From an uncultured Clostridia bacterium (GTDB taxonomy: Bacteria; Bacillota; Clostridia; Christensenellales; UBA1242), in assembly GCA_934778205.1 (NCBI GenBank), contig CAKVOD010000003.1, forward strand, positions 109,890 to 173,889: a stretch of DNA of 64,000 bases. The letters run 5' to 3'. The notes below the pieces were generated by a model. The model saw nothing but the letters and a program-made list of their open reading frames with translations, was not told the DNA's origin and ran no database searches. Made by a program: the position numbers and the translations under genes. Shown here in pieces: positions 7,246 to 53,390 of the stretch. Numbering within the stretch: the stretch's first letter is position 1; the number at the start of each line of letters is the position of its first letter.

Positions 7246-7578
7246 TTATAAGTTCACCCAAATTATTGCGCCGTTGGGGTGCTTGTAACTGCGCGGCGTT
7301 GCATAACGTTCAGCGTCGGTCAAAACCCATGCAAAAGTTTTTTTATATGGTAAAAATGATGTATCTTTTATACAATGTTTGCTCTCATTATTTATGTAAT
7401 CTTCTAGCGACAATTCAAGTGAATCAACGAGTTTGCATTTCCCCACGACAAGACCACTGCCACTTTGTATCAATTCTATTTCCCCGCGAATACGCGTGTT
7501 TCTACCGCGAATTTCCCAGATTTTTTGTCCGTCCAAAATATAATCTATCCACGGTTTTTTTATCAATAATGCTTTCAT
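7246..7578 (-). CDS. ASCH (ASC-1 homology, PUA-like fold) domain protein
   Basis: 110-aa ORF MKALLIKKPWIDYILDGQKIWEIRGRNTRIRGEIELIQSG...AWVLTDAERYATP. Size and the pattern I..G.K..E.R...(R)G fit small stand-alone ASCH proteins. An RBS-like AGGGA lies upstream. Confidence 0.65.
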   Translation of the reverse strand: MKALLIKKPWIDYILDGQKIWEIRGRNTRIRGEIELIQSGSGLVVGKCKLVDSLELSLEDYINNESKHCIKDTSFLPYKKTFAWVLTDAERYATPRSYKHPNGAIIWVNL

Positions 7579-7626
7579 TTTCCGTCCCTTTCTTGTATTT
7601 AATCCTTATATTGATAAGTTTTAAAA

Positions 7627-28829: not shown

Positions 28830-29516
28830 CTACAGCGTAAAGAATTTTACCGTATTTTGCATTTTGCTCTCTAACGCGCTTGCCTTTTCTTTGTTTGTGT
28901 ATTGTGCAACGAGCCAACTACCTGCGATTGGTCCAAATACGGTGCAGGCAACTGTTAGTTTTGCTCCATACCATATTAGATTTGCAAAGGCGAGTTTTCT
29001 AGACATAGTGGGTTTATCTTTATCATTCTTTTTATAACCTTTCATATCGCACATTTCAGCAATGAAATCTCTAATTGGGGTTTTTGACTCTTTTTCTTTT
29101 TTGTGCACATTCAAATTAATTTTGTTATCCTTATCAAAATTATCGGGCTCGAAATCGAACGCATCTTGGCTTGGATATTTCATAGACGATGGTGAATACG
29201 GCGCAATAGATTGCTCGACACTTGAATCTAACGCTGGTTCGGGCTTGCTTTCAGACTTCGTTTCTTTCTTTTCTCCTGCGTCTTTTTCCTGCGTATCAAC
29301 GCCCTTTTCCGATTCCTTATCATCTTTTTTATCAGCGCCGTTCTCTTTCTTCTTTTCTTCAGTGCTCTTTTCTTCAGTGCTTTCAGTTTTCCCCGCATCC
29401 TTTTTCCCGTCCACTGGTGGGTCAACTGGTGTTACTGGAGGTTTTGGTGGTTCAGGCGGAGTCATTGTTCTCTCTTCGCCCAAATCTTTCTTCTTCTCTT
29501 CTTTTACATCTGCCAT
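28830..29516 (-). CDS. Hypothetical protein: Pro/Lys/Glu-rich low-complexity N-terminal ~170 aa and a hydrophobic segment near the C-terminus
   Basis: 228-aa ORF with a strong RBS (AGGAGG) and an MADVKEEKKKDLGEE...PPEPPKPPVTPVDPPVDGKKD... tract. The hydrophobic segment near the C-terminus is LTVACTVFGPIAGSWLVA. It is the third gene of a coupled operon. No family recognised. Confidence 0.6.
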   Translation of the reverse strand: MADVKEEKKKDLGEERTMTPPEPPKPPVTPVDPPVDGKKDAGKTESTEEKSTEEKKKENGADKKDDKESEKGVDTQEKDAGEKKETKSESKPEPALDSSVEQSIAPYSPSSMKYPSQDAFDFEPDNFDKDNKINLNVHKKEKESKTPIRDFIAEMCDMKGYKKNDKDKPTMSRKLAFANLIWYGAKLTVACTVFGPIAGSWLVAQYTNKEKASALESKMQNTVKFFTL

Positions 29517-29528
29517 TTTTCAGTCCTC

Positions 29529-29729
29529 CTATTTTTTATTGATGAAATCGTTTAGTTTCTTTATTAGTTCATTTAAGTCAATTCCGTGGACTGCTGCGGC
29601 TTCTTCCAAAGTTTCCATTGAACCCATCGGGCAAGCAAAACAGTGCATCCCAAAGCCCATAAAAATTTCAGCAGTTTCTGGAGAGATTTCCAACACATCT
29701 GCGATTCGCATATCTTTGTTTATTTCCAT
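29529..29729 (-). CDS. DUF1858-type small protein (hybrid-cluster-protein-associated redox disulfide protein family)
   Basis: 66 aa, MEINKDMRIADVLEISPETAEIFMGFGMHCFACPMGSMETLEEAAAVHGIDLNELIKKLN. The CxxCP motif, length and flanks are typical of DUF1858. Its ATG overlaps the upstream stop (TAATG). Confidence 0.7.
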   Translation of the reverse strand: MEINKDMRIADVLEISPETAEIFMGFGMHCFACPMGSMETLEEAAAVHGIDLNELIKKLNDFINKK

Positions 29730-30556
29730 TATAGTTCATTTCCTTGTTCATTGTTTTTCATTTTTTCAAGACTGTGCTTGTATTTTGCAACCATCTCGTT
29801 ATAGAATATGTTGTAATATTCTTTGTCTACTGAATAGCCGATAGGGTCGCGCGCGCCGTCATCATAATCATAGTTGTAGATAGGTTTATAACCCATAACC
29901 TCGTTAAGTCCGTCCATATTTTTTTTCAAGATATCAAAGTGCTTAAAGAATGTTTGTTTTGTAAAGATTTGCAAATCTTTTGCGGAATTGAAATACAAAT
30001 CTCTTACACGTTCAAAATATGGCAAATATCCATTAATAGCAAAGGAATTTAAAACTTTAGGCTCTAACAATTTATTGTCATATTGCGCGATGTTGCTGAG
30101 TTCTTTGATTCTTGATGCAAGTCCGTGGTCTATATCCCAAACATAGATGTACCTCAACATTTCGTTTAAGTCTTGCATATCGTATTGAATATACTCATTG
30201 CGTTCTTCTTGAGTGAGTTCCTGCCCGAGGTGCATTTTGAATCTAATACAAATTTGTTTGTTTAGGTTCAGCATTTCCTCGTGCGTGATTGTTGCGAGCA
30301 ATAATGTTTGATTCAATAATATGTAATATTCTTCCGCCTTCAAAATTGATTTCAACATCCCTTGTGGCGAACCGCATCTTTCAAATTCTTCGAGCGCTTC
30401 AATTGTGCTAGGAATTTTCACTTTGTAAATTCTCTTAAGCGCATCTAAAACTTCAAACGAATCCTTGACCGAATCGGCTTCCAAACGCGCCTTTTCTCTT
30501 TCAGTCATAAGTACTTTCAAAATTTGGTCTCTCTCTGATTTAAATCTAAATGACAT
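29729..30556 (-). CDS. Hypothetical protein (275 aa, predicted soluble, helical)
   Basis: Long ORF with an RBS (AGAGGGA) and its own consensus promoter. No motif I can assign to a family. Confidence 0.6.
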   Translation of the reverse strand: MSFRFKSERDQILKVLMTEREKARLEADSVKDSFEVLDALKRIYKVKIPSTIEALEEFERCGSPQGMLKSILKAEEYYILLNQTLLLATITHEEMLNLNKQICIRFKMHLGQELTQEERNEYIQYDMQDLNEMLRYIYVWDIDHGLASRIKELSNIAQYDNKLLEPKVLNSFAINGYLPYFERVRDLYFNSAKDLQIFTKQTFFKHFDILKKNMDGLNEVMGYKPIYNYDYDDGARDPIGYSVDKEYYNIFYNEMVAKYKHSLEKMKNNEQGNEL

Positions 30557-32523: not shown

Positions 32524-32708
32524 TTTCCCTTCCATTTGATGACTAAAATGCTATTGCACGCAATATTTTTCTCTACTGTCATTTTCATATTTATTATACC
32601 AAATTTTTCTTGTAAAATGCAATTGTTTTATATAAAATTGTTGCAATGTATGAATTTTGTTTTATTTATTCTAAACTGACCAAAACTTAAGCAAAAGCCA
32701 CTGACAAC

Positions 32709-32750
32709 AAAAAAGAATAGAAACCGCTTTCGCAATTTCTATTCTTTTTT
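32709..32750. terminator. Bidirectional rho-independent terminator after the giant ORF
   Basis: GAATAGAAA (32715-32723) pairs with TTTCTATTC (32736-32744), with an inner GC/GC pair. It is flanked by an A-run and T6 and sits about 25 nt downstream of the stop at 32773. Confidence 0.7.
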
Positions 32751-32772
32751 GTCTAACAATGAATATTGTGAA

Positions 32773-34530
32773 CTAACTATGTTTCCACACTGGTTTTAAA
32801 GTTGTATTTGAGTCAATTTTGATACTGCTAGAGTCATAGGACCCGTCATAAACATTTTTGACTTCATTTGCCCAACCTGTCGTTTTAAAATTGTATTTTG
32901 GACCACCATATGTTACTGAACATGTTGCCACATAATCACTAAACAAAAGGTCAGTTCCACGTTTTATTCTTGTTTTGTTTGTATTGTTTGTGTTTGAAAC
33001 GCTAGAATAACTATGTTTCTTCCCGTTTGATACCCACCAACTTGGTTTTGTCCACGCGGTATTGTCAAATGTGACTGTGCACCATTGCGTTTCAGTCCAA
33101 ATTGCGATGTATTCACAATTGCCGTTTGGCGTTATTGACGCGTTTGTTGTGATTGTAGTTTCGCGTAGTTTATAACCGCCAAATGCGTATTCGCTTGTAT
33201 ATGAGCCATAATCTTTTGAAAGCATTGCGTATTGTGGAAGTGCTACGCTTGAACCTTCATAAAGTTCATATGTTTGCGAGTATGAATCTGTCAAACTAGA
33301 TGTGTATTGAGATGAAACTTTGACACTGTATTTATTTCTCAAATACCACGTGCTGTCGGCTGAAACGATAAAGTTGTCAACCTTTGTGTTTTCGTCAAAG
33401 TTTGCACTTGTATAAACTAATGTCGAATCGTTGTATGCGTCAAATGCTGACATTTCAACAACTGTTCCGCCGACAACGACTTCGTCATAGATAGTCGCGC
33501 CTGCATTGATAACTTTGAGTGAATAGATTGTTTCTACCTTTTCGTCCCATTTAGCGTATAGATATGCTCCATTTTCTGGCATTTGCGAAGCATTAAATAT
33601 CGTACCGTCGACAAAGTTTTGAGTTGTGAACCAGTCCACAAATGTGCGTATTGTTCTTGTGTGGCTTGCTAGGTCGTCTATAACTTGCGTATCGTAGTTT
33701 GGAAGCGTTATGCTTTCGCCCACTACTGCCATTATTGTATCGACTTTTGTTTCGCCGTCAAACAATGTTAATGTTTGCTTTGAAACAATCAAATCCCACT
33801 TTGCGTACAAATCAAAACTTTCGTTTGGCATCGAATTACTTTCAAACAATGTTTCAATTTCATATGTGTTTGACTTAAACCACCCGTCGAACTCATAAAG
33901 TGAGTATGACGTAGCTGTCGAAACTTCTTTGTTATCAAGGCTCGAAAGCACTATTTCGTCGCCATAAAAACCAGAGATTGTGCGAACAATTTGATCGCCG
34001 TAAATAAAGTTGATTGTTTGCTTTTGGTAGTTGCTGACAACTTCCCACTTGGCGTACAAAGTTAAGTTTTGACTTGGCATTGAAGTTGCTTCAAACTTAG
34101 TGCCCTCGTCAAATGTTTCGCTTGTATACCAACCAACAAAACGATATGTCGTCTTTTCTGTATCAGTTATAACAACTCTATCTTCGTAAGTTGGAAGTTC
34201 TATTGAATAGTTTTCATATTCATTGATGCTTGCAACGTCCGCTCCGCCGTTCGTGACAAATGTCAGCGTGTACATATTGACGCGGTCAACCGCCGTCCAT
34301 TTTGCGTATAATTTTGTGTCGTGTCGTGGCATTTTGTTGCTTGTAAACTCTGTGCTGTCGTCGAATGTCGGCGTAGTATACCAGCCGTCGAAACGGTAGG
34401 TTGTTTTTGTATTGCCATCGATAACTTCACGATTTGAATAAGTTGGCAAGTTGAGTTTTGCACTCGGCGCGCTTGTGATATTTGATACCGCTACACCGCC
34501 GTTCGTTTCAAAGCTCATTGTGTATGAAAC
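32773..34530 (-). repeat. Coding region for 6-7 Listeria-Bacteroides-type (Flg_new-like) repeats at the C-terminus of the giant protein
   Basis: Four clear copies: YTMSFETNGG...TYRFDGWYTTPTFDDSTEF...TKLYAKWT, YTLTFVTNGG...TYRFVGWYTSETFDEGTKF...LTLYAKWE, ...LYEFDGWFKSNTYE...FDLYAKWD and ...FVDWFTTQNFVDGTIF...AYLYAKWD. Two to three degenerate copies follow. Confidence 0.75.
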
Positions 34531-37500
34531 TGTTTTTTGACATTTCCAGTCGTTTTCACTTGCCGTCCATTCTGCGCCCTCTTCATAAGCATATGAGTTT
34601 GCATAAGTATAGACACTGCTTAAGTCAAGAGATTTACCTATATCAACAAGTTTCATATTGTTGCTTTCAAGGTTCATATTGACACCACCAGCAAGTGGCA
34701 TTACCATTTGCATAGAAATGTCGGTCACGTATTCTTTTTGCGCTGACTCAACAAATGACGGCTTTATGCTGATTGATATTGAATCAAGTTTGTCATCATT
34801 TGAAATTTCTTTCAAATTGAGTTTTACATTATAACTACCATTATTGTTGTTATAATCAAGCAAAACGTTGCCCATATTGATAGGATTTTGTCTATTCTTT
34901 GCCTTTTCCATTGACTCATTGATGGCACTCATAATTGAGTCCGTGAACCCTGTCATATATTGTAGATAATACATTGCATCGTCAAGGAACGTAGTGTAAT
35001 GAACCATTGTTTTCTTTTCATAAAGGCGTGAACCTTTTACTTTTGCAACGTGTTCCGTTCTGTGGATATAAACATTTTCATCCACGTAATAGATATTGAT
35101 ATATCTATCTTGCGACTTGTATATCCCGTTGATTCCGTCACCTACGACAAACTTAACATCATTGTTTACGCCTTCGACTGACGGCATCGGTCCGATGAGT
35201 GCTTTAATCACTGGGCGCTTGTCGACAAGTTTGATTTGAATGTCGATTGGAATGTGCCAGTCAATATTTATGCCAATAATTGTCATTTTGACGTCAAGTG
35301 TTGCTGTGATGTGATAGTCGTTGAGTTCTGACGTATTGATGACGCCCTTCAACAAGTCACTGATACTACTAATATCAAAGTAGTTGCCCTCAATTGCTGG
35401 AACTTCCTCAAAATTAACAAAGTCAATGTTGAGATTAAAGTATTCACTAGATGTGACACCTGTATAAATGTTGTTGAGGTCGAAATGGCTGAGTTTGCCG
35501 TTTGTTGTGCCAATATTCAATGTCATTGTTTGAGCATTTTCGTTGCCACTAATCTTTTTGCCGTCAAGGCAAATCGTAACCGCGCCGTTTGAATAGTTGA
35601 TGCTTTCAACAATTTTTAGCATTGCGAACGGATCGCCAAAGTCGAGCGTTGGCATTGCGCCTTTGATGTTGTCAAAATTCATATCGCCAAAGTCGACATC
35701 TCCAAAAATTCCCAAATCATTGATATCATAGCCGAACACTGCCAAAATTATGCCCGCGATTTCTTTGATGTTTGTTTTGTGAATTTTTAATTTGAGTCCA
35801 CTATAGTTTACATAGAAGTATGTGCCGTCAAAATCAAGTGTAACCGCAATATCTTTTTCGCCGTGGAGCGTTGCATTGCCGTGGAACAATTTTTGCGCGT
35901 TGCTAATGTCGAGGCTTGCATTGATTGAACCATCAAAACGCATCGTTTGCCCGTTATATACTTGCGTACTTGCGTTGACTGTATATTTTTGCGCGTTCAA
36001 TGTGTCGATGACGCATTGAATTGTATTCAACAATTCTTCAATCGTTGCATAGTCTTGCCCGTTGATTTGTGCGAGTTTGACCGCCTCACTTGTCGCGACG
36101 ATTGAAACATTCGCTTTAACTGATTCAAAGTCAGCAACAATGTTCAAAATCTTTGAAATATCAACGCGAATATTGCCTGACGCGATGTTCATATCAAACA
36201 CATTTTGTTTTAATGCGAAAGTGCCGAAAGTTGAAAGGTCTAGCTTTTTGATTGTGTCAATAACCTCATCAAAACTCATATCACTTGTGCTTGTTTTGAT
36301 GTTTCCAAAGTATGGAAGTTCAAACCCTAAGTTAAAGTTTTTGTTGAGGAAGTCGACGACCATATTGCCTTCGACATTGCTTTCCGTTGGCGCAACTAAG
36401 TTTGCACCAAAATTGCGGTTTGCAAAGTCAACAATTTGCAATAAATCTTTTTCGACAAACTGAACTTTCAAGTTTGCAAAGTCAATATAAATTGTACTAC
36501 CACGCACGTGAATTGTGACAGAAAGTCCTTTAAATTCTGCTACCAAATCTACTTTGATTTTATCATTATAATCGATGCTCAAACTTGCATCAAGGGTTTG
36601 GTCGTAGCCAAGCAATTTTGCACTAACTTGTGCGTCAAGTGCAATTGCTTTTGTGCGATATACTTGCAAAATTCTGCTACATACTGGTAGAATATCGGTA
36701 ACTTTACTGTAATTTTCAACAGTTATGTTGCTAATTTCAAAATTATTTACAATTTCAAGTTTTGCGCTAATTTTCCCATATACAACACTAATTGTTTGAA
36801 TATTGCTATTTGCAAATGAAAGTACTGCATTCACAAGACTTGTTTCAATATTAATTTCATCTAAGCCGTTTTGACTAATTGATTTAATGAATGTATTAAT
36901 ATCAAAATCAATATTAGTATTTGTGTCAATTGTGACGCCAAATTCTTTTTCCGCCCACTCTAAAATTGCATCAATTTCGCTGAGTGCGACTTGAACTTTC
37001 ATTCCGTCAATATTTGCATAAACGACGCCATTTTGTAGATCAATAATGATTGTTTTTTCAAATGCTACAAGCGTTGCACTAACTCTTAAGTCAGCAATAT
37101 TTTGCGTTCGCATAAATGTTTTGAAGTCAACGCTTGCGTTGCCCGCAAAGTTCATTGTGTCATAGGTAAAGTCAAATGTAAAAGCAACTTTGCCATTATT
37201 TACAATTGAATAGATTGAACTTGCTTTTTCGATGACGCTTGAAAGTGGCAAAAATTCGTCCACATTTTCAATTACGATTGCTTGTTTGCCAATGTTTTGA
37301 GTCAATGAAACTGCGATGCCGTCATATTCAATACTTGCAACAAACCCATTTTCAAGGCTCAATTGCAAAATTAAATCCTTATAAGTGATTTGCAAGTTTT
37401 TGTCATTCACAAGTTCAAAGATGATGTCACTAAAGTGAATATTGTCAAGACTAATTTCATTTTGTGAAGTTTTGTCAATTGTAATGCAAAATTCACGGCA

Positions 37501-40500
37501 AACTAGGTCGATAATGTCACTTATTTCATTGAATCCAAACTTGTATTTTAGTCCGCTGATTTCAAGATATACAATATTATCTATCATAGTTGCTGAAACT
37601 TTTTGATTGAACAAAATCGTATTCAATTGAATGCCAAAACTATTGATGACATAGTCAATTGTGAGTTCACCCACAAGTTTTTCAATTTGTGGCGCAGAAA
37701 CCGTCATTGTTCCAAACATTCCTGACAAATACCCATCGATAAACGGCTCAATGAATGGCAAGAACGTGATTATGTCAAAGTATCCGCTCGTGCTTGTGTC
37801 AATGTCGCAAGGTGCATTTGCAAATTTTGCTACGATGCTTGCATAGTCATTGATTGAAACGCTTGCGCCATTTAATGTGTTATTTTTGCAATCGGCAACA
37901 ACATTAATTTCGCCACTTGCAAGTCTGTTTAGGTCAATACCAAATTTTGTTAGGTCGATGCCAGCAAAATCGAGTCCAAAGTCTTTCAAGTCAAAGTTTG
38001 AAACCCTTGCAGTTATTTTTTCGCCGTCATACCCTAAGCGCAACTTTTTCAAATACTTTTCAACAAGTGCTTTATCAAATGTTACATTGATTTGTGGCGC
38101 GTTTGTTTGGCTGTCGCCCATTGCCCTATTGATAAGTGCAACGACTTTGTCAATGTCGTTTAGACTAAACTTGATTTTCATTCCGTCAAAGTTTGCATAT
38201 ACAACATTTTCAAGCAATTTCACGTCAAGATTTTTGCCGAGAATTTGCGCCGAAACTTGCGCTTGCAAGCCCGCTTCGCTATAATTTACAAGCCCACTAA
38301 TTGAGTATTCGCCTACATTGAAATTAATTTCAGCAAAAATTTGCTTTTGAGATGTGATATTAATAATGTTTTTGATGAGTTCGACAAGGTTTTCTGCTTT
38401 GACATAGTTTTCGCTCAAAGCAACATCATTGTAGTTTTCGACTGCATTAAACGTTACATTTGCCCTTGCATAATTGCAAACAAGTGAAACATTTGAAATT
38501 AGGTCATCCTTTCTTGTTATGTCAAGAGAAATATTTTTTAGGTTTTTAATATTTTTAGCCCCAACTGACAAAGTATTGTTGTCATACCCTAATGTTAGAC
38601 TTGAAATTGCGCACTTTATGTAATCAATGATTTGTTGTTGTGAGATTTCCGCATTCATTTGGATTTTCCCAAAACTTTCGATTGTGGCACAAATATTAAT
38701 GTCTTGATATGAAACATATATTATGTTATCAACAAGCGCAACTGTGAGCGTATCTCCCAAAATTTCAGTGCTTGCATCAAACTTGATGTTTCCGCCATTG
38801 TAACTATAATTATAATTGATGACAAAGTGCAATTCTTCAGGCGTGATTCCGTCAATTGGCACAACTCCGTCCATAATTTGCAAGCCAATTTGCCCGCTGA
38901 CTGCGTTGCTCTTTATAGTCGCAATCGCGCTGTCAACTACATTCAAAATGTCGTTGATGTCAACAAACTCACACGCTGGTTTTGTGACAACGACTGTGTC
39001 CGTGTGCATCGACACTTCAAGACTCAAACTGTCAATGTTGATTTTGTCAATGTTCAAATCGTTGATTTCAATTTCAGCGCCCATTATGGTTTTTGCAAAA
39101 TTGAGTGTCAACCCGATTTTGCCAACTTGAATGCTTGCACTATTGCTTGAAACTTCAATTGTGTTGACAAAACTTAGGTCGCTGACATTTAGTGCGCTTG
39201 CAACTGTTTTCAAAATATCTACTACATTTTTAGCGCTGATATTTGGTGTTTGCGCGTCTATTTTGCCAAAGTTGTTTTCAATAAAAGCAATAATTTTGTC
39301 TAATTCATTGACATTTGCGCTAATTGCAAGTTCCCCTACTGTGACATAGATTGTGTTGTCAATGTATGTGACACTAATTGTAGTGCCGTATATAATAAGG
39401 CTTATATTCGCTTTAATGTTTCCGTCCGTGATTGAAATTTTGTAGTCAATATTTGCTTCAATTGCTTGATTGTTGACGTTTGCTTTCAAAATAGCAGTTC
39501 CGCTAAAATTGTTTGCCTTGATTGTATTCAAAATAGGCTCAACAACTGGCAACAATTGCATAATATCAACATATTCATCTTTATTTGTGACATCTATTCG
39601 ATTTTCATTTGCGACAAAGTCGATTGTAAACAATTCCGCGCCACTCTTTGTGAGTTTTGCGCCACTGAAATTGTCGTTTTCGATTTTAAATGAAACTTCA
39701 TAATCATCATACGTTGCGCTAAATTTTTCGCCTGTATATGCTAGGTATAACTTATTGATGATTCCAAATATTTTGTTGGTGTCAATTGTTATGTTTGGCA
39801 TTTGAGGCATTACCACATTGAGCGTTTTCAAAAGATCTTGAACTTTATCAATATCGCTGAGAGCAAACTTTATATTTGCGCCGAGTGCTGAAACATATAC
39901 AACATTATCGACAAACACAAAGTTTATTTTGTATTCGCCATATGTTGCAACCGCTGTTACTGCGATATTTTTGTCGACAATATTAATTTGACCGCTAACA
40001 CTTACGCCCTCATAGTTTGCCACGAAATTTGCAAAAATTCCGTCCTTTGCATAATTTGCAAAATTCTTTGCGACCTGAATAAGTTGCATCGCATCGATAT
40101 AGTCATCGGTTACAATTGTTTTTTGTGCAAACTCTTTATATTCAAATGTTGTTTCAATTGAATAATCTTTATATTCCGCAAATAGTTTTGCAATTTTCCC
40201 GTCGCGGAGTTCGATATTCGCGCCAAACTCGCCGTTGATTAATGCAAAAATATTGTCGTTTATTTCAATTGATGTGTTTGAAATGATACCTAGCGCTGTT
40301 TTTAGAACGATATATATTGTTTGTTTTTGTTCTTCAGTCAACTCAATTTTGAGAATTTGTTTGATGCTATTCAAGTTGATTTCATCAAAGTCGATATTCT
40401 TAAGATTATCAAGCGCATCATTTACATTGTCAAATTTGTTGTCAATTCCAAACTCAGTCATTAATGCTTTGAGCGTTTGCTCGCTAATTTTTATTTTGAT

Positions 40501-41973
40501 GCCTTGGTATGAAACATAAGCCACATTGTTTTGATATGTAAAATCAAAATCATTTTCGCCAACTTTAGTGTTCAAATTCAAGTAAATGTTCCCGAAATTA
40601 TATGCGTAATTTACATTCGCGCGTGCTACATACTCATTGACTTTGAGCGTTGCAACTGCGTTCACATCGTTTGATTTGAACGTCGCAAGCGTCGCGTTTG
40701 AAAGGTCGTCAACATTTGAAAGCGTTAAGTACTTGCCTGTTGGCTCGCTAATTGCAGGAATATTGGAGTAGTTGAAAGTGCACTCAACCGCATAGCCTTT
40801 ATACGAAACTCTTGCGCTTGCAATCTTTGAGTTTTCAGTTTGAACATTCAATTTAATGTCGTCATATTCAAATGACAAACCGCCGTTTTCATCGACTACG
40901 ATTTGATTTAAGAATTGGAGTGTAAGTTTTGAAAAATCAATAGTTTTCAATTTTTGAATGAGTGCACCGATTGCTTCTTGCTTCTCAATTTGTTCAAAAT
41001 CGAACTTTCCACCGACAAACTCCTTAAGTTTTGCAATGTCGCCCTTGTCACATTTAATACCAAGTGCACCGATGTTGGCGTATATAGCGTTTCCAAAGTA
41101 TTTAACTGCAAAATCGTTTTCAGCAATTGTTGTTTGCAAAAGCATATTTGTTTTGTCAAATGTAAGTTTGCTTTCAAGTCCCAAAACGTCGACTGTTGCC
41201 GTGAATGGGGTTTGAATAGTGTTCAATAGTGATGCCAAAACCGCAAATTGTTTTGATGCCTCAGCGTATGTGCTGTGGTCGTTTGGTTTTGTCAATCCCA
41301 GCATCTCATCTTTTGTTTCAAGCGCAACTTTAGGCTCGACCGTGAAATTGCCGAATGCGATTTTAGGGATATCTACACTTTTTATATCATACTCAGTGTC
41401 GGTTTTGATGATAATATCGCCGACAGGAGTGTTCATCTTCAATAGAATTTCCGTTTCGCCCTTTTCCTCGACAATATTTTGCATCAAACCCATTAGCGCA
41501 TTTATGTCAAGCAAACTTGAAATGTCGACTTCAGGCAAAACTCCCGAAAGTGCTGAGCCCACAATTTTGACAAGTCCGCCGATGTCGTCAGTTGTCGCTT
41601 GATATCTCGCACCCAAAAGGTCGACATAAATTTTCCCGTCGACAAACGCAAAACTGATTGCGAGACTTTCGCCGTCCCTTTCAATGTTCACATTGCCCGC
41701 AAGGTTAAAGGCGGAAAAACCACTCACTAAGTCCATTTGCAGATTGAGCGAAACATTCGCAAGTAATTCATCATTCTCTTTGAGAACAAATTCTCCGCCC
41801 GCCGTCAGTGCTTTAGCGTCCATAAGATTGCCGACAACCTTGTCAAACGCCGACTGCTCGGCTGGCTGTACTGCGCGCGATGGCGCTGTTTGGTCTGTGA
41901 ACAGAAAAACTCCACCCACACCCGACATCAACATAACAATGTATGTCAAAAAATATACTAAAAATTTTCTCAT
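32773..41973 (-). CDS. Giant (3066 aa) N-terminally membrane-anchored surface protein with ~11-12 diverged ~190-aa modules, then Listeria-Bacteroides-type repeats
   Basis: Longest ORF in the window. It has an RBS (AGGGGA) and an N-terminal hydrophobic helix (FLVYFLTYIVMLMSGVGGVFLF). A hallmark motif, (D/E/G)N(V/I)(V/I)Y(V/A)...G..(I/L)K(F/I).L.(D/E)ID(K)(V/I), recurs about every 190 residues. The C-terminal ~585 aa carry repeats ending Y(R/E)F.GW(Y/F)....F......MP......LYAKW. Confidence 0.9.
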   Translation of the reverse strand: MRKFLVYFLTYIVMLMSGVGGVFLFTDQTAPSRAVQPAEQSAFDKVVGNLMDAKALTAGGEFVLKENDELLANVSLNLQMDLVSGFSAFNLAGNVNIERDGESLAISFAFVDGKIYVDLLGARYQATTDDIGGLVKIVGSALSGVLPEVDISSLLDINALMGLMQNIVEEKGETEILLKMNTPVGDIIIKTDTEYDIKSVDIPKIAFGNFTVEPKVALETKDEMLGLTKPNDHSTYAEASKQFAVLASLLNTIQTPFTATVDVLGLESKLTFDKTNMLLQTTIAENDFAVKYFGNAIYANIGALGIKCDKGDIAKLKEFVGGKFDFEQIEKQEAIGALIQKLKTIDFSKLTLQFLNQIVVDENGGLSFEYDDIKLNVQTENSKIASARVSYKGYAVECTFNYSNIPAISEPTGKYLTLSNVDDLSNATLATFKSNDVNAVATLKVNEYVARANVNYAYNFGNIYLNLNTKVGENDFDFTYQNNVAYVSYQGIKIKISEQTLKALMTEFGIDNKFDNVNDALDNLKNIDFDEINLNSIKQILKIELTEEQKQTIYIVLKTALGIISNTSIEINDNIFALINGEFGANIELRDGKIAKLFAEYKDYSIETTFEYKEFAQKTIVTDDYIDAMQLIQVAKNFANYAKDGIFANFVANYEGVSVSGQINIVDKNIAVTAVATYGEYKINFVFVDNVVYVSALGANIKFALSDIDKVQDLLKTLNVVMPQMPNITIDTNKIFGIINKLYLAYTGEKFSATYDDYEVSFKIENDNFSGAKLTKSGAELFTIDFVANENRIDVTNKDEYVDIMQLLPVVEPILNTIKANNFSGTAILKANVNNQAIEANIDYKISITDGNIKANISLIIYGTTISVTYIDNTIYVTVGELAISANVNELDKIIAFIENNFGKIDAQTPNISAKNVVDILKTVASALNVSDLSFVNTIEVSSNSASIQVGKIGLTLNFAKTIMGAEIEINDLNIDKINIDSLSLEVSMHTDTVVVTKPACEFVDINDILNVVDSAIATIKSNAVSGQIGLQIMDGVVPIDGITPEELHFVINYNYSYNGGNIKFDASTEILGDTLTVALVDNIIYVSYQDINICATIESFGKIQMNAEISQQQIIDYIKCAISSLTLGYDNNTLSVGAKNIKNLKNISLDITRKDDLISNVSLVCNYARANVTFNAVENYNDVALSENYVKAENLVELIKNIINITSQKQIFAEINFNVGEYSISGLVNYSEAGLQAQVSAQILGKNLDVKLLENVVYANFDGMKIKFSLNDIDKVVALINRAMGDSQTNAPQINVTFDKALVEKYLKKLRLGYDGEKITARVSNFDLKDFGLDFAGIDLTKFGIDLNRLASGEINVVADCKNNTLNGASVSINDYASIVAKFANAPCDIDTSTSGYFDIITFLPFIEPFIDGYLSGMFGTMTVSAPQIEKLVGELTIDYVINSFGIQLNTILFNQKVSATMIDNIVYLEISGLKYKFGFNEISDIIDLVCREFCITIDKTSQNEISLDNIHFSDIIFELVNDKNLQITYKDLILQLSLENGFVASIEYDGIAVSLTQNIGKQAIVIENVDEFLPLSSVIEKASSIYSIVNNGKVAFTFDFTYDTMNFAGNASVDFKTFMRTQNIADLRVSATLVAFEKTIIIDLQNGVVYANIDGMKVQVALSEIDAILEWAEKEFGVTIDTNTNIDFDINTFIKSISQNGLDEINIETSLVNAVLSFANSNIQTISVVYGKISAKLEIVNNFEISNITVENYSKVTDILPVCSRILQVYRTKAIALDAQVSAKLLGYDQTLDASLSIDYNDKIKVDLVAEFKGLSVTIHVRGSTIYIDFANLKVQFVEKDLLQIVDFANRNFGANLVAPTESNVEGNMVVDFLNKNFNLGFELPYFGNIKTSTSDMSFDEVIDTIKKLDLSTFGTFALKQNVFDMNIASGNIRVDISKILNIVADFESVKANVSIVATSEAVKLAQINGQDYATIEELLNTIQCVIDTLNAQKYTVNASTQVYNGQTMRFDGSINASLDISNAQKLFHGNATLHGEKDIAVTLDFDGTYFYVNYSGLKLKIHKTNIKEIAGIILAVFGYDINDLGIFGDVDFGDMNFDNIKGAMPTLDFGDPFAMLKIVESINYSNGAVTICLDGKKISGNENAQTMTLNIGTTNGKLSHFDLNNIYTGVTSSEYFNLNIDFVNFEEVPAIEGNYFDISSISDLLKGVINTSELNDYHITATLDVKMTIIGINIDWHIPIDIQIKLVDKRPVIKALIGPMPSVEGVNNDVKFVVGDGINGIYKSQDRYINIYYVDENVYIHRTEHVAKVKGSRLYEKKTMVHYTTFLDDAMYYLQYMTGFTDSIMSAINESMEKAKNRQNPINMGNVLLDYNNNNGSYNVKLNLKEISNDDKLDSISISIKPSFVESAQKEYVTDISMQMVMPLAGGVNMNLESNNMKLVDIGKSLDLSSVYTYANSYAYEEGAEWTASENDWKCQKTVSYTMSFETNGGVAVSNITSAPSAKLNLPTYSNREVIDGNTKTTYRFDGWYTTPTFDDSTEFTSNKMPRHDTKLYAKWTAVDRVNMYTLTFVTNGGADVASINEYENYSIELPTYEDRVVITDTEKTTYRFVGWYTSETFDEGTKFEATSMPSQNLTLYAKWEVVSNYQKQTINFIYGDQIVRTISGFYGDEIVLSSLDNKEVSTATSYSLYEFDGWFKSNTYEIETLFESNSMPNESFDLYAKWDLIVSKQTLTLFDGETKVDTIMAVVGESITLPNYDTQVIDDLASHTRTIRTFVDWFTTQNFVDGTIFNASQMPENGAYLYAKWDEKVETIYSLKVINAGATIYDEVVVGGTVVEMSAFDAYNDSTLVYTSANFDENTKVDNFIVSADSTWYLRNKYSVKVSSQYTSSLTDSYSQTYELYEGSSVALPQYAMLSKDYGSYTSEYAFGGYKLRETTITTNASITPNGNCEYIAIWTETQWCTVTFDNTAWTKPSWWVSNGKKHSYSSVSNTNNTNKTRIKRGTDLLFSDYVATCSVTYGGPKYNFKTTGWANEVKNVYDGSYDSSSIKIDSNTTLKPVWKHS
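35393..41898 (-). repeat. Coding region for ~11 tandem, strongly diverged ~175-215-aa modules of unassigned family
   Basis: The hallmark segments are spaced about 190 aa apart: DGKIYVDLLGARYQ, GNAIYANIGALGIKCDKGDIAKL, NNVAYVSYQGIKIKISEQTLKAL, DNVVYVSALGANIKFALSDIDKV, DNTIYVTVGELAISANVNELDKI, DNIIYVSYQDINICATIESFGKI, ENVVYANFDGMKIKFSLNDIDKV, DNIVYLEISGLKYKFGFNEISDI, NGVVYANIDGMKVQVALSEIDAI, GSTIYIDFANLKVQFVEKDLLQI and GTYFYVNYSGLKLKIHKTNIKEI. Boundaries are approximate. Confidence 0.65.
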
Positions 41974-41992
41974 TATTTTCCCCTACTCTCAA

Positions 41993-42892
41993 TCACTTTG
42001 TGACTGGAATAACATTTTCTCTCCCATATTCAAAATCTTCTCTCAATATGCCTGTACAGCCCGCATTGACGCCCATATAGTTGACGGTATATTTTTCGTA
42101 TGTGTCAATTGAAATGAATCTAAACGATTCGTCAACAACACAAGTCAAGGTCACAGTTTCAAACGTAGGATAGTTTGGCAATTGCGAAATATTTTTCATT
42201 TGCTTGACGTAGTTCAATACGCCCAAAATTGCATCTAGTTCAATGACAATTTCATATGCCTTGCTACCATTCTCAAGCGTGATTGCTTTTGGAACTGCTG
42301 TTTTGTTCAAAACTGTTTTACTTGAAACAATGTATGGTATAAACGACGTTATCGGCACACCGTTGACTTCGTGAAAATCATTTAGCGCGCGGTCGCCCTT
42401 ATCTTTCCAATTGGCAGTCAGTTGCTCAGTTATTCCCGATGCTGTGTAATAGCGGAGCGAGTTTGCTCCATCGGTGTAGTAATCGCGCTCGCCTACACTC
42501 TTGATACCTTTACTGATACTCTCTTTGTAGTACTTCCCGTCCTCATACGCCTTTACACTCAAAACCAATTGGTCTTTTATCGTCTTTACTTTACCTGTTC
42601 CATATATATAGACGCTACCGTGCGTGAACAAACGCTGTTCTGCAATCTCAAAAACTTCATACGCCTTGAATGCGGACGGCGCTTTCCCTTCCGCGCGTTG
42701 AGAGAGTGCTTTTGCGTCGTCACGCAACTCCGCCTCTTTGTACTGCGAATAATCTACTTGTGGCGCTCCGATGAAAAAACCACCGACAAATATTCCGCTC
42801 AAAATGCCTGCGATTGACACAAAAATTAGTGCAATTATGCTTTTCTTTGTGAATTGAAAAGGTATTCTTTCCTTTGTTTTGTTTCTACTCAT
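41993..42892 (-). CDS. Hypothetical signal-anchored extracytoplasmic protein (299 aa), first gene of the giant-protein operon
   Basis: It has a basic N-terminus followed by a helix (IIALIFVSIAGILSGIFVGGFFIG), and the remainder is predicted to be outside the cell. Its stop lies 20 nt before the start of the giant ORF. No family recognised. Confidence 0.7.
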   Translation of the reverse strand: MSRNKTKERIPFQFTKKSIIALIFVSIAGILSGIFVGGFFIGAPQVDYSQYKEAELRDDAKALSQRAEGKAPSAFKAYEVFEIAEQRLFTHGSVYIYGTGKVKTIKDQLVLSVKAYEDGKYYKESISKGIKSVGERDYYTDGANSLRYYTASGITEQLTANWKDKGDRALNDFHEVNGVPITSFIPYIVSSKTVLNKTAVPKAITLENGSKAYEIVIELDAILGVLNYVKQMKNISQLPNYPTFETVTLTCVVDESFRFISIDTYEKYTVNYMGVNAGCTGILREDFEYGRENVIPVTK

Positions 42893-43042: not shown

Positions 43043-43071
43043 ATTATATAATTTTCTACAAATAAAGTCAA
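43043..43071 (-). promoter_or_regulatory. Consensus sigma-A promoter of the 299-aa + 3066-aa operon
   Basis: Minus strand TTGACT (reverse of 43066-43071), a 17-nt spacer, then TATAAT (reverse of 43043-43048). Confidence 0.7.
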
Positions 43072-44434: not shown

Positions 44435-45415
44435 CTAAATCACAATTACACTAGAGGACGCACCGCCACTAAACTTTAGTGTTATGTTTGCGTCGGTTTT
44501 AGAAACGGTGTAACTAAACTTATTTTTGTTTGCCGTGTCTTGCGTGCAATCTCCTGTGACGGTCATTGACCACATATATGGTTTGCTAACAAGTATTGAG
44601 TAGTTTTCGCCGACCGATTGCGTCAACACAATCTCCTTGCCACTTGTCGCGACTATTTGGCTCTGAACCATGTCACCATTTATTAGATACAATATTACAC
44701 CATTGCCACTTGCGCCTGTGACTGTAATATTGATTGTTATTACGCTTTGTACTTTTGTCCATTTGCCATAAAGAGGAATCGTATCATCATACCCCGTCGT
44801 ATCAAACGCTGCACTCAAACTTGATAACGCCGTGTCGCTGCAATCCGCTTTTGTGTACCAACCCTCAAACTTATATTTTGCTCGACTTGGCAAAACTAAT
44901 TGCGTTTCAGTACCTGTTGTGTACTCTTGTGGTGGCGTCGCCGACCAATCAGAATCAAGCATATCACTATTTATTAAGTCGCCCGTATAGTTATATGTAA
45001 TTGTGTAAGTCGTAGACGCAATCAATACAAGTTCAATATGAATCTGAATCCACGAATTCCCGTCAAATGTCTCACACCACACATGATCGGCATCATATTC
45101 TTTACCGTCATCCAAGTCTTTCCATTTGTATGTGTCTGTCACACCATTAAGCATAATAGTAAATGGTATGCGAACAGCCTCATTCATATAATATAAATAA
45201 TCTCCATTACTATCACTTCCTGAGCTTTGATAGTGAAATGAAATATATTCGGAATTAGTAGGACTCAAAACAATATTGTCTTTATATTTAAGTGCGCCGT
45301 AAATATAAACATTAGTTCCGCCTCCCACCGCTCTAATATTGCTGTCATAAAAGCGATAAGCAGGAATTAACAAAAAGAGCATATTAACAACAAAAAGCCA
45401 TACTAATACTAGCAT
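44435..45415 (-). CDS. Surface protein paralogue (326 aa as annotated): hydrophobic N-terminus, one Listeria-Bacteroides-type repeat, shared C-terminal domain; 5' end appears decayed
   Basis: The ORF starts directly at a hydrophobic helix (MLVLVWLFVVNMLFLLIPAY) with no RBS. It contains ...KYKFEGWYTKADCSDTAL...IPLYGKWT. The reading frame stays open 170 nt upstream of the ATG without a start codon. See the finding on the G12 tract. Confidence 0.6.
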   Translation of the reverse strand: MLVLVWLFVVNMLFLLIPAYRFYDSNIRAVGGGTNVYIYGALKYKDNIVLSPTNSEYISFHYQSSGSDSNGDYLYYMNEAVRIPFTIMLNGVTDTYKWKDLDDGKEYDADHVWCETFDGNSWIQIHIELVLIASTTYTITYNYTGDLINSDMLDSDWSATPPQEYTTGTETQLVLPSRAKYKFEGWYTKADCSDTALSSLSAAFDTTGYDDTIPLYGKWTKVQSVITINITVTGASGNGVILYLINGDMVQSQIVATSGKEIVLTQSVGENYSILVSKPYMWSMTVTGDCTQDTANKNKFSYTVSKTDANITLKFSGGASSSVIVI

Positions 45416-52841: not shown

Positions 52842-53390
52842 TCATTTGCCGAAAAAGTTGTTGATGATTTCCACAAGTTTTGATTTGTAGTGAATGTTTT
52901 TGCTACCATCGTCCACACCGCCGACAAAGCACATTGGCGGATAGACGACACACCACCAGTTGTTGCCTTGACCTGTGCCGAGATTTAATATTAGTGCGTC
53001 ATAAAACCCACTTTCAAGCACAAGGTCGTCATATTGGCGGGTTGGAAACTTTTCTTTGCACACGCGCGCTGAGGAACTATAGTTATATCCTTCGCGTTTC
53101 AAGACGGCGTTTGCTACATTTTCGATAAGCGGTAAATTATTTTCGATAATTTCAACCGCTTTTTCTTTTGTCGTGGCGTCGACAAGCAATGGTGTCAAGG
53201 CGTCGACGACTGCACTTTTGACTTCGTATTTTACGAGTTGGTCGCATTCGTTATTGCTGTTTGCGCGGATATGTATTCTCAAATAGTCGGCTTTGTCGAG
53301 CCCTGCACTTTGTGGCTGAAATCCGCACACTGCCACGATGATTGCCACGAGTACTACTGCGCTTGCTATGATATAATTTACTGCGTTCAT
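52842..53390 (-). CDS. spoIIR: Stage II sporulation protein R
   Basis: 182 aa with a signal anchor. LRIHIRANSNNECDQLVKYEVKSAVV... and NWWCVVYPPMCF match the SpoIIR family signatures. Confidence 0.88.
   Translation of the reverse strand: MNAVNYIIASAVVLVAIIVAVCGFQPQSAGLDKADYLRIHIRANSNNECDQLVKYEVKSAVVDALTPLLVDATTKEKAVEIIENNLPLIENVANAVLKREGYNYSSSARVCKEKFPTRQYDDLVLESGFYDALILNLGTGQGNNWWCVVYPPMCFVGGVDDGSKNIHYKSKLVEIINNFFGK

What the first reader, a model, noticed from the sequence alone, without database searches (positions are those of the whole stretch)
32773..42892. Two-gene operon encoding a 3066-aa membrane-anchored protein built from ~11-12 ancient copies of an unassigned ~190-aa module, tipped with Listeria-Bacteroides repeats
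A 299-codon ORF (41993-42892) sits 20 nt upstream of a 9.2-kb ORF, and both follow one consensus promoter. Each product begins with a single hydrophobic helix, so both are predicted to be anchored with the bulk outside the cell.

After its anchor, the large protein repeats one architecture 11-12 times with a period of about 175-215 residues. Each copy opens with a segment like (D/E)xYxD(I/A)xxL(L/I)xxV. Each has a central hallmark such as DNVVYVSALGANIKFALSDIDKV, ENVVYANFDGMKIKFSLNDIDKV, NGVVYANIDGMKVQVALSEIDAI or DNIVYLEISGLKYKFGFNEISDI. Each ends in a beta-rich second half.

The copies are far diverged at the nucleotide level, with no long DNA repeats. That argues for an old internal amplification rather than an assembly artefact.

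I cannot place the module, or the 299-aa partner, in any family from memory. The final ~585 residues switch to 6-7 Listeria-Bacteroides-type repeats (..Y.F.GW.....F......MP.....LYAKW). I see no LPXTG, SLH or choline-binding motif, so the N-terminal helix seems to be the only anchor.

Inference: a very long extracellular fibre or rod presenting the repeat tip, with a dedicated co-expressed partner. This is the largest block of unexplained coding capacity in the window.
Basis: partly seen in the sequence, partly recalled or inferred. Interest (0 to 1): 0.72.

Follow-up and report, generated by a model that had tools for sequence, protein, structure and literature searches.

The report
Giant chain of LolA-like domains
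An uncultured spore-forming gut Clostridium carries a two-gene operon: a small membrane-anchored protein and a 3066-residue membrane-anchored giant, both built from the half-barrel fold bacteria use to carry lipids (LolA/LprG), with twelve copies end to end in the giant; this pair defines a large, unnamed family whose function is unknown.

Summary
ORFs 41993-42892(-) (299 aa) and 32773-41973(-) (3066 aa) form a discrete two-gene unit between a sigma-70-like promoter and a strong terminator hairpin. The giant has one N-terminal TM helix, 11 full diverged ~190-aa modules, and a better-conserved ~295-aa twelfth "cap" module. It then carries 4 clear Listeria-Bacteroides repeats, not 6-7.

No Pfam, NCBIfam or PDB sequence match exists for the module or the partner. 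AlphaFold2 models of both nonetheless match the LolA/LolB/LprG/RseB half-barrel fold (Foldseek prob 1.0, TM 0.4-0.5). The predicted topology is the fold's 6+5 strands with a helical lid.

A profile search finds 761 clusters, the best 150 listed all being 1240-6215 aa proteins. These share one plan: TM, then 5-17 linker-less modules, then cap, usually then Listeria-Bacteroides repeats. The partner gene sits immediately upstream in 26 of 28 loci, whatever the flanking genes.

Best reading (about 0.45): a membrane-anchored, wall-spanning rod that displays binding repeats, with the partner docked at its base. Main rival (about 0.25): a relay for hydrophobic cargo. Function is inferred, not shown. 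This is a new variant of a known fold superfamily.

The parts
43043..43071 (-). Sigma-70-like promoter TTGACT-17-TATAAT, about 150 nt upstream of the partner's start codon
   Evidence: Best match in the region (11/12), located in the intergenic space. This is a consensus match only; similar matches are near chance frequency in this AT-rich DNA.
41993..42892 (-). Partner gene, 299 aa. Basic cytoplasmic N-terminus, one TM helix, then a ~250-aa extracytoplasmic LolA/LprG-like half-barrel domain.
   Evidence: ORF. No Pfam or NCBIfam hit. AF2 pLDDT 84, pTM 0.79. Foldseek top hits LprG, LolA-superfamily NE2245, RseB, EPD-BCP1 and LolB. 27 homologues at 28-98% identity.
42767..42844 (-). Partner TM helix (aa ~17-42), containing an invariant GxxxG (G33, G37)
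   Evidence: Sequence. G33 and G37 are invariant across 24 homologues down to 23% identity.
32773..41973 (-). Giant gene, 3066 aa
   Evidence: ORF. The identical protein is found on at least 8 independent contigs.
41896..41964 (-). Giant N-terminal TM helix (aa 4-26), acting as a signal-anchor
   Evidence: Only hydrophobic segment found in the protein. 63-94% identical in orthologues whose middle modules are 21-38% identical.
41302..41871 (-). Module 1 (aa 35-224), LolA-like
   Evidence: Module HMM. Better conserved than modules 2-4.
40747..41292 (-). Module 2 (aa 228-409)
40219..40773 (-). Module 3 (aa 401-585)
39610..40137 (-). Module 4 (aa 613-788)
39022..39615 (-). Module 5 (aa 787-984); modelled
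   Evidence: The AF2 two-module model gives helix, 6 strands, helical lid, 5 strands. Foldseek hits are LolA, LolB, RseB and LprG.
38443..39012 (-). Module 6 (aa 988-1177); modelled
37894..38442 (-). Module 7 (aa 1178-1360)
37285..37830 (-). Module 8 (aa 1382-1563)
36715..37299 (-). Module 9 (aa 1559-1753)
36094..36750 (-). Module 10 (aa 1742-1960)
35413..36099 (-). Module 11 (aa 1959-2187)
   Evidence: 44-88% identical in orthologues.
34534..35418 (-). Terminal cap (aa 2186-2480): a divergent, enlarged twelfth module. Apart from the TM helix, it is the best-conserved part of the protein.
   Evidence: Its first 68 positions match the module HMM. Matched in 149 of 151 family representatives in an iterated search, most over nearly its whole length at about 1e-105 (126 at <1e-30). 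50-92% identical in orthologues.
33544..34542 (-). Four Listeria-Bacteroides (Flg_new) repeats, aa 2478-2810
   Evidence: Pfam PF09479 E 1.4e-25 and TIGR02543 E 3e-19. Four copies at about 1e-40 each with a self-built HMM.
32776..33543 (-). C-terminal 256 aa with at most two degenerate repeat-like segments. Absent from the 52% and 37% orthologues.
32706..32753 (-). Intrinsic terminator: 22-bp hairpin followed by a U-run, 20 nt after the giant's stop codon
   Evidence: dG -27.6 kcal/mol, z -8.8, 0 of 200 shuffles as stable

Best explanation
The operon encodes a two-protein envelope structure built from the LolA/LprG half-barrel fold.

- **Shown or directly predicted:** Both proteins are inserted N-in/C-out by a single TM helix. 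The giant's extracytoplasmic part is a linker-less series of 11 LolA-like modules. It is closed by a conserved twelfth cap module and followed by four Listeria-Bacteroides repeats.
- **Inferred mechanism:** The chain forms a semi-rigid rod some tens of nanometres long. It is rooted in the membrane, crosses the Gram-positive wall and displays the binding repeats at the cell surface, as an adhesin-type fibre.
- **Inferred partner role:** The partner docks at the membrane-proximal end through a TM-TM contact and its LolA-like ectodomain against module 1. This would stabilise or assemble the base.
- **Inferred role of the middle modules:** They act mainly as spacers whose number sets the reach of the rod.
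For: **Architecture**
- One TM helix in each protein, with basic residues before it.
- 11 modules plus a cap.
- Module envelopes abut without linkers: median gap -6 aa, and 93% of 1097 junctions across the family are within 15 aa.
- The modelled junction is ordered (pLDDT 77-89) while the lid loops are not (pLDDT below 50).

**Fold**
- The AF2 models show 6 strands, a helical lid, then 5 strands. This is the LolA-superfamily definition given in PMC6363788.
- Foldseek top hits are almost all LolA, LolB, RseB, MucB and LprG at probability 1.0.

**Tip**
- Flg_new repeats are present, and 103 of 126 family tails carry the repeat motif.
- Repeat number and C-terminal extension differ between close orthologues: 4 repeats plus 256 aa here, 2 repeats in the 52% and 37% orthologues. 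That pattern suits a fast-evolving binding end.
- Module number varies from 5 to 17 in the 151 representatives analysed and falls to 1-5 in the short, tip-less versions, as expected for a spacer.

**Partner linkage**
- The partner is immediately upstream on the same strand in 26 of 28 loci with unrelated flanks. It is the only other gene family conserved across those loci.
- The partner's TM helix has an invariant GxxxG.
- The giant's TM helix and module 1 are more conserved than modules 2-4.

**Expression**
- Sigma-70-like promoter and terminator bracket the pair.
- The host is an endospore-former (SpoIIR), which I take to be monoderm. A wall is therefore expected to be there to cross.
Against: - No experiment, localisation or expression data exist; every member found comes from a metagenome or an uncultured-organism assembly.
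- Short relatives end at the cap and have no binding repeats (L018, L021, L023, L024, L032). Display of a tip therefore cannot be the core function.
- Typical stalk repeats of adhesins are homogenised and similar to one another. Here the modules are 12-36% identical to each other and are conserved one-to-one between orthologues, which suggests position-specific roles.
- A dedicated partner that is better conserved than the giant itself (52-98% in its own clade against 33-84%) is not a usual adhesin feature.
- The LolA superfamily is best known for binding hydrophobic ligands.
Rod geometry, module-module contacts and the partner-module 1 contact are all inferred.
- TM-scores to solved LolA-type structures are only 0.4-0.5.
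Confidence: 0.45

Rival explanations
1. Hydrophobic-cargo relay. The serial LolA-like pockets, or a groove formed between them, would pass lipids, lipoglycans or lipoprotein acyl chains through the aqueous wall, either outward or inward as scavenging. The TM-anchored LprG/LolA-like partner would load or unload cargo at the membrane, and the cap and repeats would dock at the far end. The logic resembles LptC-LptA-LptD, LolA to LolB, or LprG-Rv1410, but with the links fused into one polypeptide.
For: - Both proteins have the LolA/LprG fold. The unifying property of that superfamily is hydrophobic-ligand binding in the curved sheet under a mobile lid (PMC6363788).
- The predicted lid loops are the low-confidence, presumably mobile, parts of the model.
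- The single-domain, membrane-anchored partner is strictly linked and highly conserved.
- The two ends (TM helix with module 1, and module 11 with the cap) are the most conserved parts, while the middle is least conserved.
- Modules keep individual identity between orthologues.
- Tip-less minimal versions exist.
Against: - No transporter or ATPase is conserved next to the pair across loci.
- No second membrane is known as a destination in a spore-forming Clostridium, which I take to be monoderm.
- Solved LolA-type domains have closed pockets rather than through-grooves, and no coordinates were available to test continuity.
- LolA-like proteins of monoderm spore-formers studied so far (GerS, SsdC) act through protein contacts, not lipid carriage.
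Confidence: 0.25
2. Envelope scaffold or regulator. As with GerS (activator of the amidase CwlD) or SsdC (ring-forming spore-shape factor), the LolA-like domains would act as protein-binding platforms. They would organise or measure wall-building or wall-cutting enzymes across the thickness of the wall, possibly during sporulation.
For: - Known LolA-like proteins of endospore-forming monoderms have such roles, and the host encodes SpoIIR.
- The cassette sits among housekeeping genes (IleRS, Suf, S10 ribosomal operon) and keeps that position from 100% down to 37% identity. That pattern suits a core envelope function.
- Minimal versions of 2-5 modules would not project far beyond a wall.
- The partner has many invariant polar residues (Q108, K114, Y213, N227, Y228, Q231, E266, Y268, C279), which suggests a specific interface.
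Against: - The promoter match is of the vegetative sigma-70 type, not a sporulation sigma consensus.
- No wall enzyme is conserved beside the pair.
- The surface-type binding repeats at the tip of most members are hard to explain for an intramural scaffold.
Confidence: 0.15
3. Ordinary repetitive surface protein with no functional link to the upstream gene. On this view the fold match is a low-TM coincidence.
For: - TM-scores are only 0.4-0.5.
- There are no sequence-level hits to any LolA-type family.
- The module model has a mean pLDDT of 75.
Against: - Top Foldseek hits for two unrelated sequences (module and partner; hhalign finds no relation) converge on the same superfamily at probability 1.0.
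- The strand and lid topology matches the published fold definition.
- Gene adjacency is conserved in 26 of 28 loci across different genomic contexts.
Confidence: 0.05

Closest known systems
LolA / LolB lipoprotein carriers (CATH 2.50.20; superfamily SSF89392)
   Same: About 180-190 aa. Predicted 11-strand curved sheet split 6+5 with a helical lid. Best Foldseek matches at probability 1.0.
   Different: No sequence-profile match. Here 12 copies are fused head to tail in one TM-anchored polypeptide of a spore-forming, presumably monoderm, Clostridium. There is no LolCDE transporter and no outer membrane.
Mycobacterial LprG (with MFS pump Rv1410) and LppX
   Same: LprG is the best structural match for the partner. 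[quoted passage not shown]
   Different: The partner is tethered by a TM helix, not a lipid anchor. Its operon mate is a poly-LolA giant, not a transporter. There is no sequence similarity.
RseB / MucB
   Same: Among the top structural hits for the two-module model. They are two-domain proteins with a LolA-like large domain.
   Different: They are soluble periplasmic anti-sigma regulators of Gram-negatives, with two domains rather than twelve. No sequence similarity.
GerS (C. difficile) and SsdC (B. subtilis), LolA-like proteins of endospore-formers
   Same: Same fold superfamily and the same kind of host, a monoderm spore-former. They show that the fold can serve protein-protein functions.
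   Different: They are single-domain lipoproteins or membrane proteins. No tandem arrays, no partner-giant cassette and no binding repeats.
Lpt trans-envelope bridge (LptC-LptA-LptD) and AsmA-like proteins (TamB, YhdP)
   Same: Shared logic only: an N-terminal TM anchor, a serial or elongated beta-rich structure reaching away from the membrane, and a small TM-anchored first link of the same fold. This comparison rests on established knowledge, not on a test here.
   Different: The fold differs (beta-jellyroll or beta-taco groove against LolA half-barrel). Those systems link two membranes of diderms. No AsmA, TamB or OstA Pfam hit was found.
Listeria-Bacteroides repeat (Flg_new / InlB B-repeat) surface proteins
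   Same: Four clear repeats at the C-terminal end, above the Pfam and TIGRFAM thresholds.
   Different: The repeats make up only about 11% of the protein, and the rest is unrelated to internalins. The anchor is an N-terminal TM helix rather than LPXTG or GW modules.

Membership tests
LolA/LolB/LprG fold superfamily (CATH 2.50.20, SSF89392) | 11-stranded antiparallel curved sheet made of sub-sheets beta1-6 and beta7-11, joined by a lid loop or helices that pack on the concave face (definition from PMC6363788) | tested here: met
   Predicted, not experimental. Module 5: helix, 6 strands, 2 lid helices, 5 strands. Module 6 has the same plan. The partner has 6 strands, a lid, then 5 strands.
LolA/LolB/LprG fold superfamily (CATH 2.50.20, SSF89392) | Structural similarity to solved members | tested here: met
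   Foldseek against the PDB returns LolA, LolB, RseB, MucB, LprG, NE2245 and EPD-BCP1 at probability 0.96-1.0 and E of 1e-5 to 3e-3. TM normalised to the target is only 0.25-0.50 and rmsd 6-18 A (about 6-10 A for the single-domain LolA, LolB and LprG matches), so similarity is moderate.
LolA/LolB/LprG fold superfamily (CATH 2.50.20, SSF89392) | Hydrophobic ligand pocket under the lid | not testable with these tools
Pfam/NCBIfam sequence families of the LolA type (LolA, LolB, LppX_LprAFG, MucB_RseB and related DUFs) | Profile match above the curated threshold | tested here: not met
   No LolA-type family matches the whole proteins or any of 50 individual modules. PDB sequence-profile searches also return no LolA-type structure, only a few unrelated hits at E >= 0.01.
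Listeria-Bacteroides repeat proteins (PF09479 / TIGR02543) | Repeat matches above the gathering threshold | tested here: met
   89.6 bits against a cut-off of 27, and 69.1 bits against 20.95. Four copies found.
Sortase-anchored (LPXTG) Gram-positive adhesins | C-terminal LPXTG motif, hydrophobic segment and basic tail | tested here: not met
   No LPXTG, no C-terminal hydrophobic segment and no Gram_pos_anchor hit.
Wall-binding module proteins (SLH, choline-binding, GW, LysM) | Presence of such domains | tested here: not met
   No Pfam hit at E <= 0.01 apart from Flg_new.
Bridge-like lipid transfer proteins (AsmA-like: TamB, YhdP) | Continuous beta-taco groove; AsmA, DUF490 or TamB profile match; two membranes to bridge | tested here: not met
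   No such Pfam hit. The fold search returns LolA-type domains instead. The host encodes SpoIIR, so I take it to be a monoderm endospore-former. Absence of an outer membrane was not tested directly.
The new family defined here (partner plus poly-LolA giant cassette) | TM anchor, linker-less modules, conserved cap, and a TM-anchored partner gene immediately upstream | tested here: met

The most novel reading that the evidence does not exclude
Monoderm gut Firmicutes may possess a previously unrecognised trans-wall conduit. A single polypeptide of 3-19 fused LolA-like lipid-carrier domains would be fed by a membrane-anchored LprG-like loader. It would move lipids, lipoglycans or lipoprotein anchors between the cytoplasmic membrane and the cell surface or a bound target. 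This would be a Gram-positive, covalently linked counterpart of the Lpt and Lol pathways.
Probability: 0.2. Interest if true: 0.9.

Novelty: new variant of a known kind. Interest (0 to 1): 0.68.

Why it matters
The LolA fold is known from single-domain carriers and regulators. A membrane-anchored chain of a dozen such domains, always paired with a single-domain relative, has no description in the literature I could search. It has no Pfam or NCBIfam model, and none of the five protein clusters checked carries a source name.

The family is nonetheless large: 761 clusters at 50% identity, all found so far in gut and rumen metagenomes or uncultured-organism assemblies. In this lineage it occupies 9-10 kb beside core housekeeping genes.

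If it is a fibre, it defines a new stalk type and a new anchoring scheme for surface proteins of uncultured Clostridia. If it carries hydrophobic cargo, it bears on an open question: how monoderm bacteria move lipid-anchored molecules through a thick wall. Either way it gives a concrete, testable target, and its sequence profiles could annotate hundreds of giant "hypothetical" proteins.

Tried and rejected
**Searches that found nothing**
- Pfam and NCBIfam on the whole proteins, and Pfam on 50 single modules: no family apart from Flg_new.
- PDB sequence-profile searches with module and partner alignments: only chance-level hits.
- hhalign of the partner profile against the module profile: no detectable relation. 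The partner is therefore not simply a detached module at sequence level.
- Foldseek against viral structures: nothing meaningful.
- Literature searches for tandem or giant LolA-like proteins: no paper found.
- Source names for the proteins: none.
- Search for a third conserved neighbour such as a transporter or wall enzyme across 28 loci: none. One apparent family was only a generic HTH match.

**Technical failures**
- The first two-module alignment used overlapping module pairs and MAFFT staggered them (A2). I redid it with disjoint pairs (A4).
- A word-index search with the cap region returned nothing, although the region is part of P0001. I treat this as a tool limitation. The cap's conservation was established locally instead.

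**Readings considered and rejected**
- Sliding-clamp and TbpB Foldseek hits: TM about 0.1 and probability 0.3-0.6, an artefact of querying with two beta-rich domains.
- Cleavable signal peptide for the giant: the hydrophobic core is about 20 residues long and conserved, which fits a signal-anchor better. This is a judgement from the sequence; no predictor was available.
- Broken ORF in L011: a run of N in the record.
- Mobile element or assembly artefact: rejected because of conserved synteny among housekeeping genes and the many independent assemblies.

Full report
**1. What is in the sequence**

Two ORFs lie on the minus strand at 41993-42892 (299 aa) and 32773-41973 (3066 aa). They are 19 nt apart, and each has a purine-rich ribosome-binding site.

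The best sigma-70-type match in the region is TTGACT-17-TATAAT at 43071-43043. It lies in the 222-nt intergenic space upstream of the small gene. Consensus matches are close to chance frequency in this AT-rich DNA, so this is supportive rather than decisive.

Twenty nt after the giant's stop codon there is a 22-bp hairpin followed by a U-run (32753-32706). Its folding energy is -27.6 kcal/mol with z = -8.8. The simple terminator scan had missed it. The pair is therefore a discrete two-gene unit.

Flanking genes are housekeeping:
- Upstream: isoleucyl-tRNA synthetase (IleRS), a small Flg_new protein and a DUF362 Fe-S protein.
- Downstream: SufC-like and SufBD genes, then the S10 ribosomal operon.
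- Elsewhere in the window: SpoIIR, DnaB_2/DnaI-type replication genes and GlmM.

The host is therefore an endospore-forming Firmicute. The nearest genome records are gut or rumen MAGs labelled "Clostridia bacterium".

**2. The repeat**

Chunk-wise BLAST of the giant against itself gives 36 significant pairs within aa 81-2239, with E down to 5e-11. Offsets are about 150-220 aa or multiples of that.

An HMM built from five modules detects the other six at E of 1e-5 to 4e-10 before any retraining. After iteration it delimits 11 full modules (aa 35-2187) and a partial twelfth match.

- The opening xYxD...L helix.
- The central NxxYVxxxGxKIK hairpin followed by a helix.

Identity between modules is 12-36%. 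At DNA level the longest direct repeat is 56 nt at 71% identity. The amplification is ancient.

After the modules come:
- A ~295-aa cap (aa 2186-2480). Its start matches the module, and it contains a recognisable version of the hallmark.
- Four clear Listeria-Bacteroides repeats (aa 2478-2810; Pfam E 1.4e-25, TIGR02543 E 3e-19).
- 256 further residues with at most two degenerate copies.

No LPXTG motif, no Pfam wall-anchor domain hit and no second hydrophobic segment is present.

**3. What the module and the partner are**

Neither matches any Pfam or NCBIfam model, whether scanned whole or module by module. Neither matches any PDB sequence by profile search.

AlphaFold2 models gave the following:

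| Model | MSA | pLDDT | pTM |
|---|---|---|---|
| Modules 5-6 | 25 disjoint module pairs | 75 | 0.63 |
| Partner | 21 homologues | 84 | 0.79 |

- Each module is predicted as an N-terminal helix, six strands, a helical segment, then five strands.
- The partner ectodomain has the same 6 + lid + 5 plan.
- This is the published definition of the LolA fold: an 11-stranded curved sheet of sub-sheets beta1-6 and beta7-11, joined by a lid that packs on the concave face (PMC6363788).

Foldseek against the PDB gave, for the module, RseB, LolA (several species), MucB, LolB, LprG and BFA1. For the partner it gave LprG, the LolA-superfamily protein NE2245, RseB, EPD-BCP1 and LolB. Probabilities were 0.96-1.0.

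TM-scores normalised to the targets are only 0.25-0.50. I therefore treat the assignment as fold-superfamily level with moderate confidence. Two points strengthen it:
- Two sequences with no detectable mutual similarity (hhalign) converge on the same superfamily.
- The predicted topology agrees with the published definition.

The least confident parts of the module model are the lid loops (pLDDT below 50). The module-module junction is confident (pLDDT 77-89).

**4. The family**

A word-index search found only 12 relatives of the giant and 27 of the partner. An exhaustive HMMER search with a 49-module profile found far more:
- 761 clusters at E <= 1e-3.
- 593 clusters at E <= 1e-10.
- 299 clusters at E <= 1e-30.
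- The best 150 are all 1240-6215 aa.

Analysis of 151 representatives showed:
- 128 have an N-terminal hydrophobic helix, and none has a C-terminal one.
- Modules start at a median of residue 48, and there are 5-17 per protein.
- Module envelopes abut: the median gap is -6 aa, and 93% of 1097 junctions lie within 15 aa.
- 149 match the cap; in those inspected the full-length match scores about 1e-105 after iteration, far better than any ordinary module.
- 103 of 126 tails beyond the cap contain the repeat motif.

Within the window's own clade the module count is fixed at 11 plus the cap, from 84% down to 37% identity. One relative (P0007/L012) has a recent three-module duplication, and more distant relatives have 7-11 modules.

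Region-wise identity to orthologues shows a gradient:

| Region | Identity to orthologues |
|---|---|
| TM helix | 63-94% |
| Cap | 50-92% |
| Module 11 | 44-88% |
| Module 1 | 39-92% |
| Modules 2-4 and 9 (least conserved) | 21-84% |

**5. The gene pair**

In loci recovered through the giant, the ORF immediately upstream is a partner homologue (HMM E of 1e-40 to 1e-148). This holds even where all other neighbours differ (L004, L005, L006).

A genome-collection scan with the partner profile found 26 loci, all MAGs or uncultured-organism assemblies.
- In all but three, the next gene on the same strand is a member of the giant family. Two exceptions (L017, L020) have unrelated downstream genes, and in L029 the contig ends at the partner gene.
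- All-against-all clustering of neighbours across 28 loci found only these two families shared across contexts.
- Shorter versions exist in "Bacilli" and "Erysipelotrichaceae" MAGs and some "Clostridia" MAGs. They are about 970-1500 aa, with a TM helix where detected (3 of 5), 2-5 modules, then the cap, and no binding repeats.

The core of the system is therefore partner plus TM-modules-cap, and the repeats are an add-on.

The partner is better conserved than the giant (52-98% in its own clade against 33-84%). Its TM helix carries an invariant GxxxG, and its ectodomain has many invariant polar residues.

**6. How it probably works**

Shown or directly predicted:
- Both proteins are type II membrane proteins with their bulk outside.
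- The giant is a linker-less series of LolA-type half-barrels with a conserved distal cap and a variable binding tip.
- The two genes are an obligate pair.

My leading inference (about 0.45) is a semi-rigid rod that spans the wall and displays the repeats. The partner would stabilise or assemble the base, and module number would set the reach. The evidence in favour:
- Prevalence of the tip across the family.
- Rapid variation of the tip between close relatives.
- Variable module number.
- Ordered junctions between modules.

The main rival (about 0.25) is a relay for hydrophobic cargo. The evidence in favour:
- The known biochemistry of the fold.
- The LprG-like anchored partner.
- Conservation concentrated at the two ends.
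- One-to-one conservation of modules between orthologues.
- The existence of tip-less versions.

The evidence against it:
- No transporter is conserved in the neighbourhood.
- There is no obvious destination membrane.
- Solved LolA domains have closed pockets.

A third reading (about 0.15) is a protein-binding scaffold for envelope enzymes, by analogy with GerS and SsdC in spore-formers. The vegetative-type promoter and the surface-type tip weaken it.

I could not inspect model coordinates. Rod geometry, pocket continuity and the partner-module 1 contact therefore remain untested.

**7. Comparison with known systems, and novelty**

By fold, both proteins belong with LolA, LolB, LprG and RseB. 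By sequence they belong to no described family.

Known members of that superfamily are single-domain, or two-domain in the case of RseB. Full-text searches returned no description of tandem arrays or of this cassette, and none of the five clusters checked carries a source name.

The system is not an LPXTG adhesin and not an AsmA-like or Lpt bridge; the defining features of those were tested and not met.

I class it as a new variant of a known kind: a known fold and a known tip repeat in a new architecture and gene pairing. It defines a sizeable unannotated family of gut Firmicutes.

Noticed in passing
window 4001-8000 (ORFs 4352-5380 and 5377-7053, minus strand): Low-GC island (26-29% against about 39% elsewhere) encoding a McrBC-type restriction system: a McrBC component and an AAA_5 GTPase-like subunit. 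Probably horizontally acquired.
   Followed up: partly
window 44435-45415 (-): A 326-aa protein with an N-terminal hydrophobic helix and one weak Listeria-Bacteroides repeat, two genes upstream of the operon. It is present in the identical locus L001 but replaced by a MarR gene in the 37% orthologous locus L003, so it is not part of the cassette.
   Followed up: partly
window 52842-53390 (-): SpoIIR (E 8.5e-41), which marks the host as an endospore-forming Firmicute.
   Followed up: no
window 28830-30556 (-), ORFs of 275 aa and 228 aa with a DUF1858 gene between them: Two conserved ORFs with no Pfam or NCBIfam hit lie between the Suf genes and the S10 ribosomal operon. They are syntenic in L001 and L007, and partly in L003.
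   Followed up: no
L012 (protein P0007, 3185 aa): This orthologue has 14 modules plus the cap. Three consecutive modules recur about 584 aa downstream with near-identical HMM scores. That indicates a recent internal three-module duplication relative to the 12-module P0009.
   Followed up: partly
L025:9755-18107, with similar arrangements likely in L026-L033: In these Erysipelotrichaceae-type loci the partner homologue (about 400 aa) is followed by two consecutive ORFs of about 1200 aa. They have no Pfam hits and only 1-2 weak module matches. This may be a split or duplicated short form of the system.
   Followed up: partly
L005:1-7935: In this distant locus the cassette lies a few kb downstream of genes resembling a dlt (lipoteichoic acid D-alanylation) cluster: AMP-binding, a 76-aa carrier-like ORF, MBOAT and a 327-aa ORF. 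It is followed by a 1497-aa M60-like/beta-helix protein. This is a single case and is not conserved elsewhere.
   Followed up: no
L026, L027, L033: Records labelled Bacteroidales, Paludibacteraceae and Parasutterella carry loci syntenic with those labelled Erysipelotrichaceae or plain "bacterium" from the same study. The taxon labels of these bins look unreliable and may reflect mis-binning.
   Followed up: no
L011:14382-14481: A run of N splits the giant ORF in this record into pieces of 1182 and 1297 aa. This is a gap or masked stretch, not a real disruption.
   Followed up: yes
window 34534-35418 (cap region) used as query: The word-index protein search returned no hit at E <= 1e-5, even though this stretch is part of P0001, which is in that database. 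This looks like a tool limitation rather than biology.
   Followed up: no
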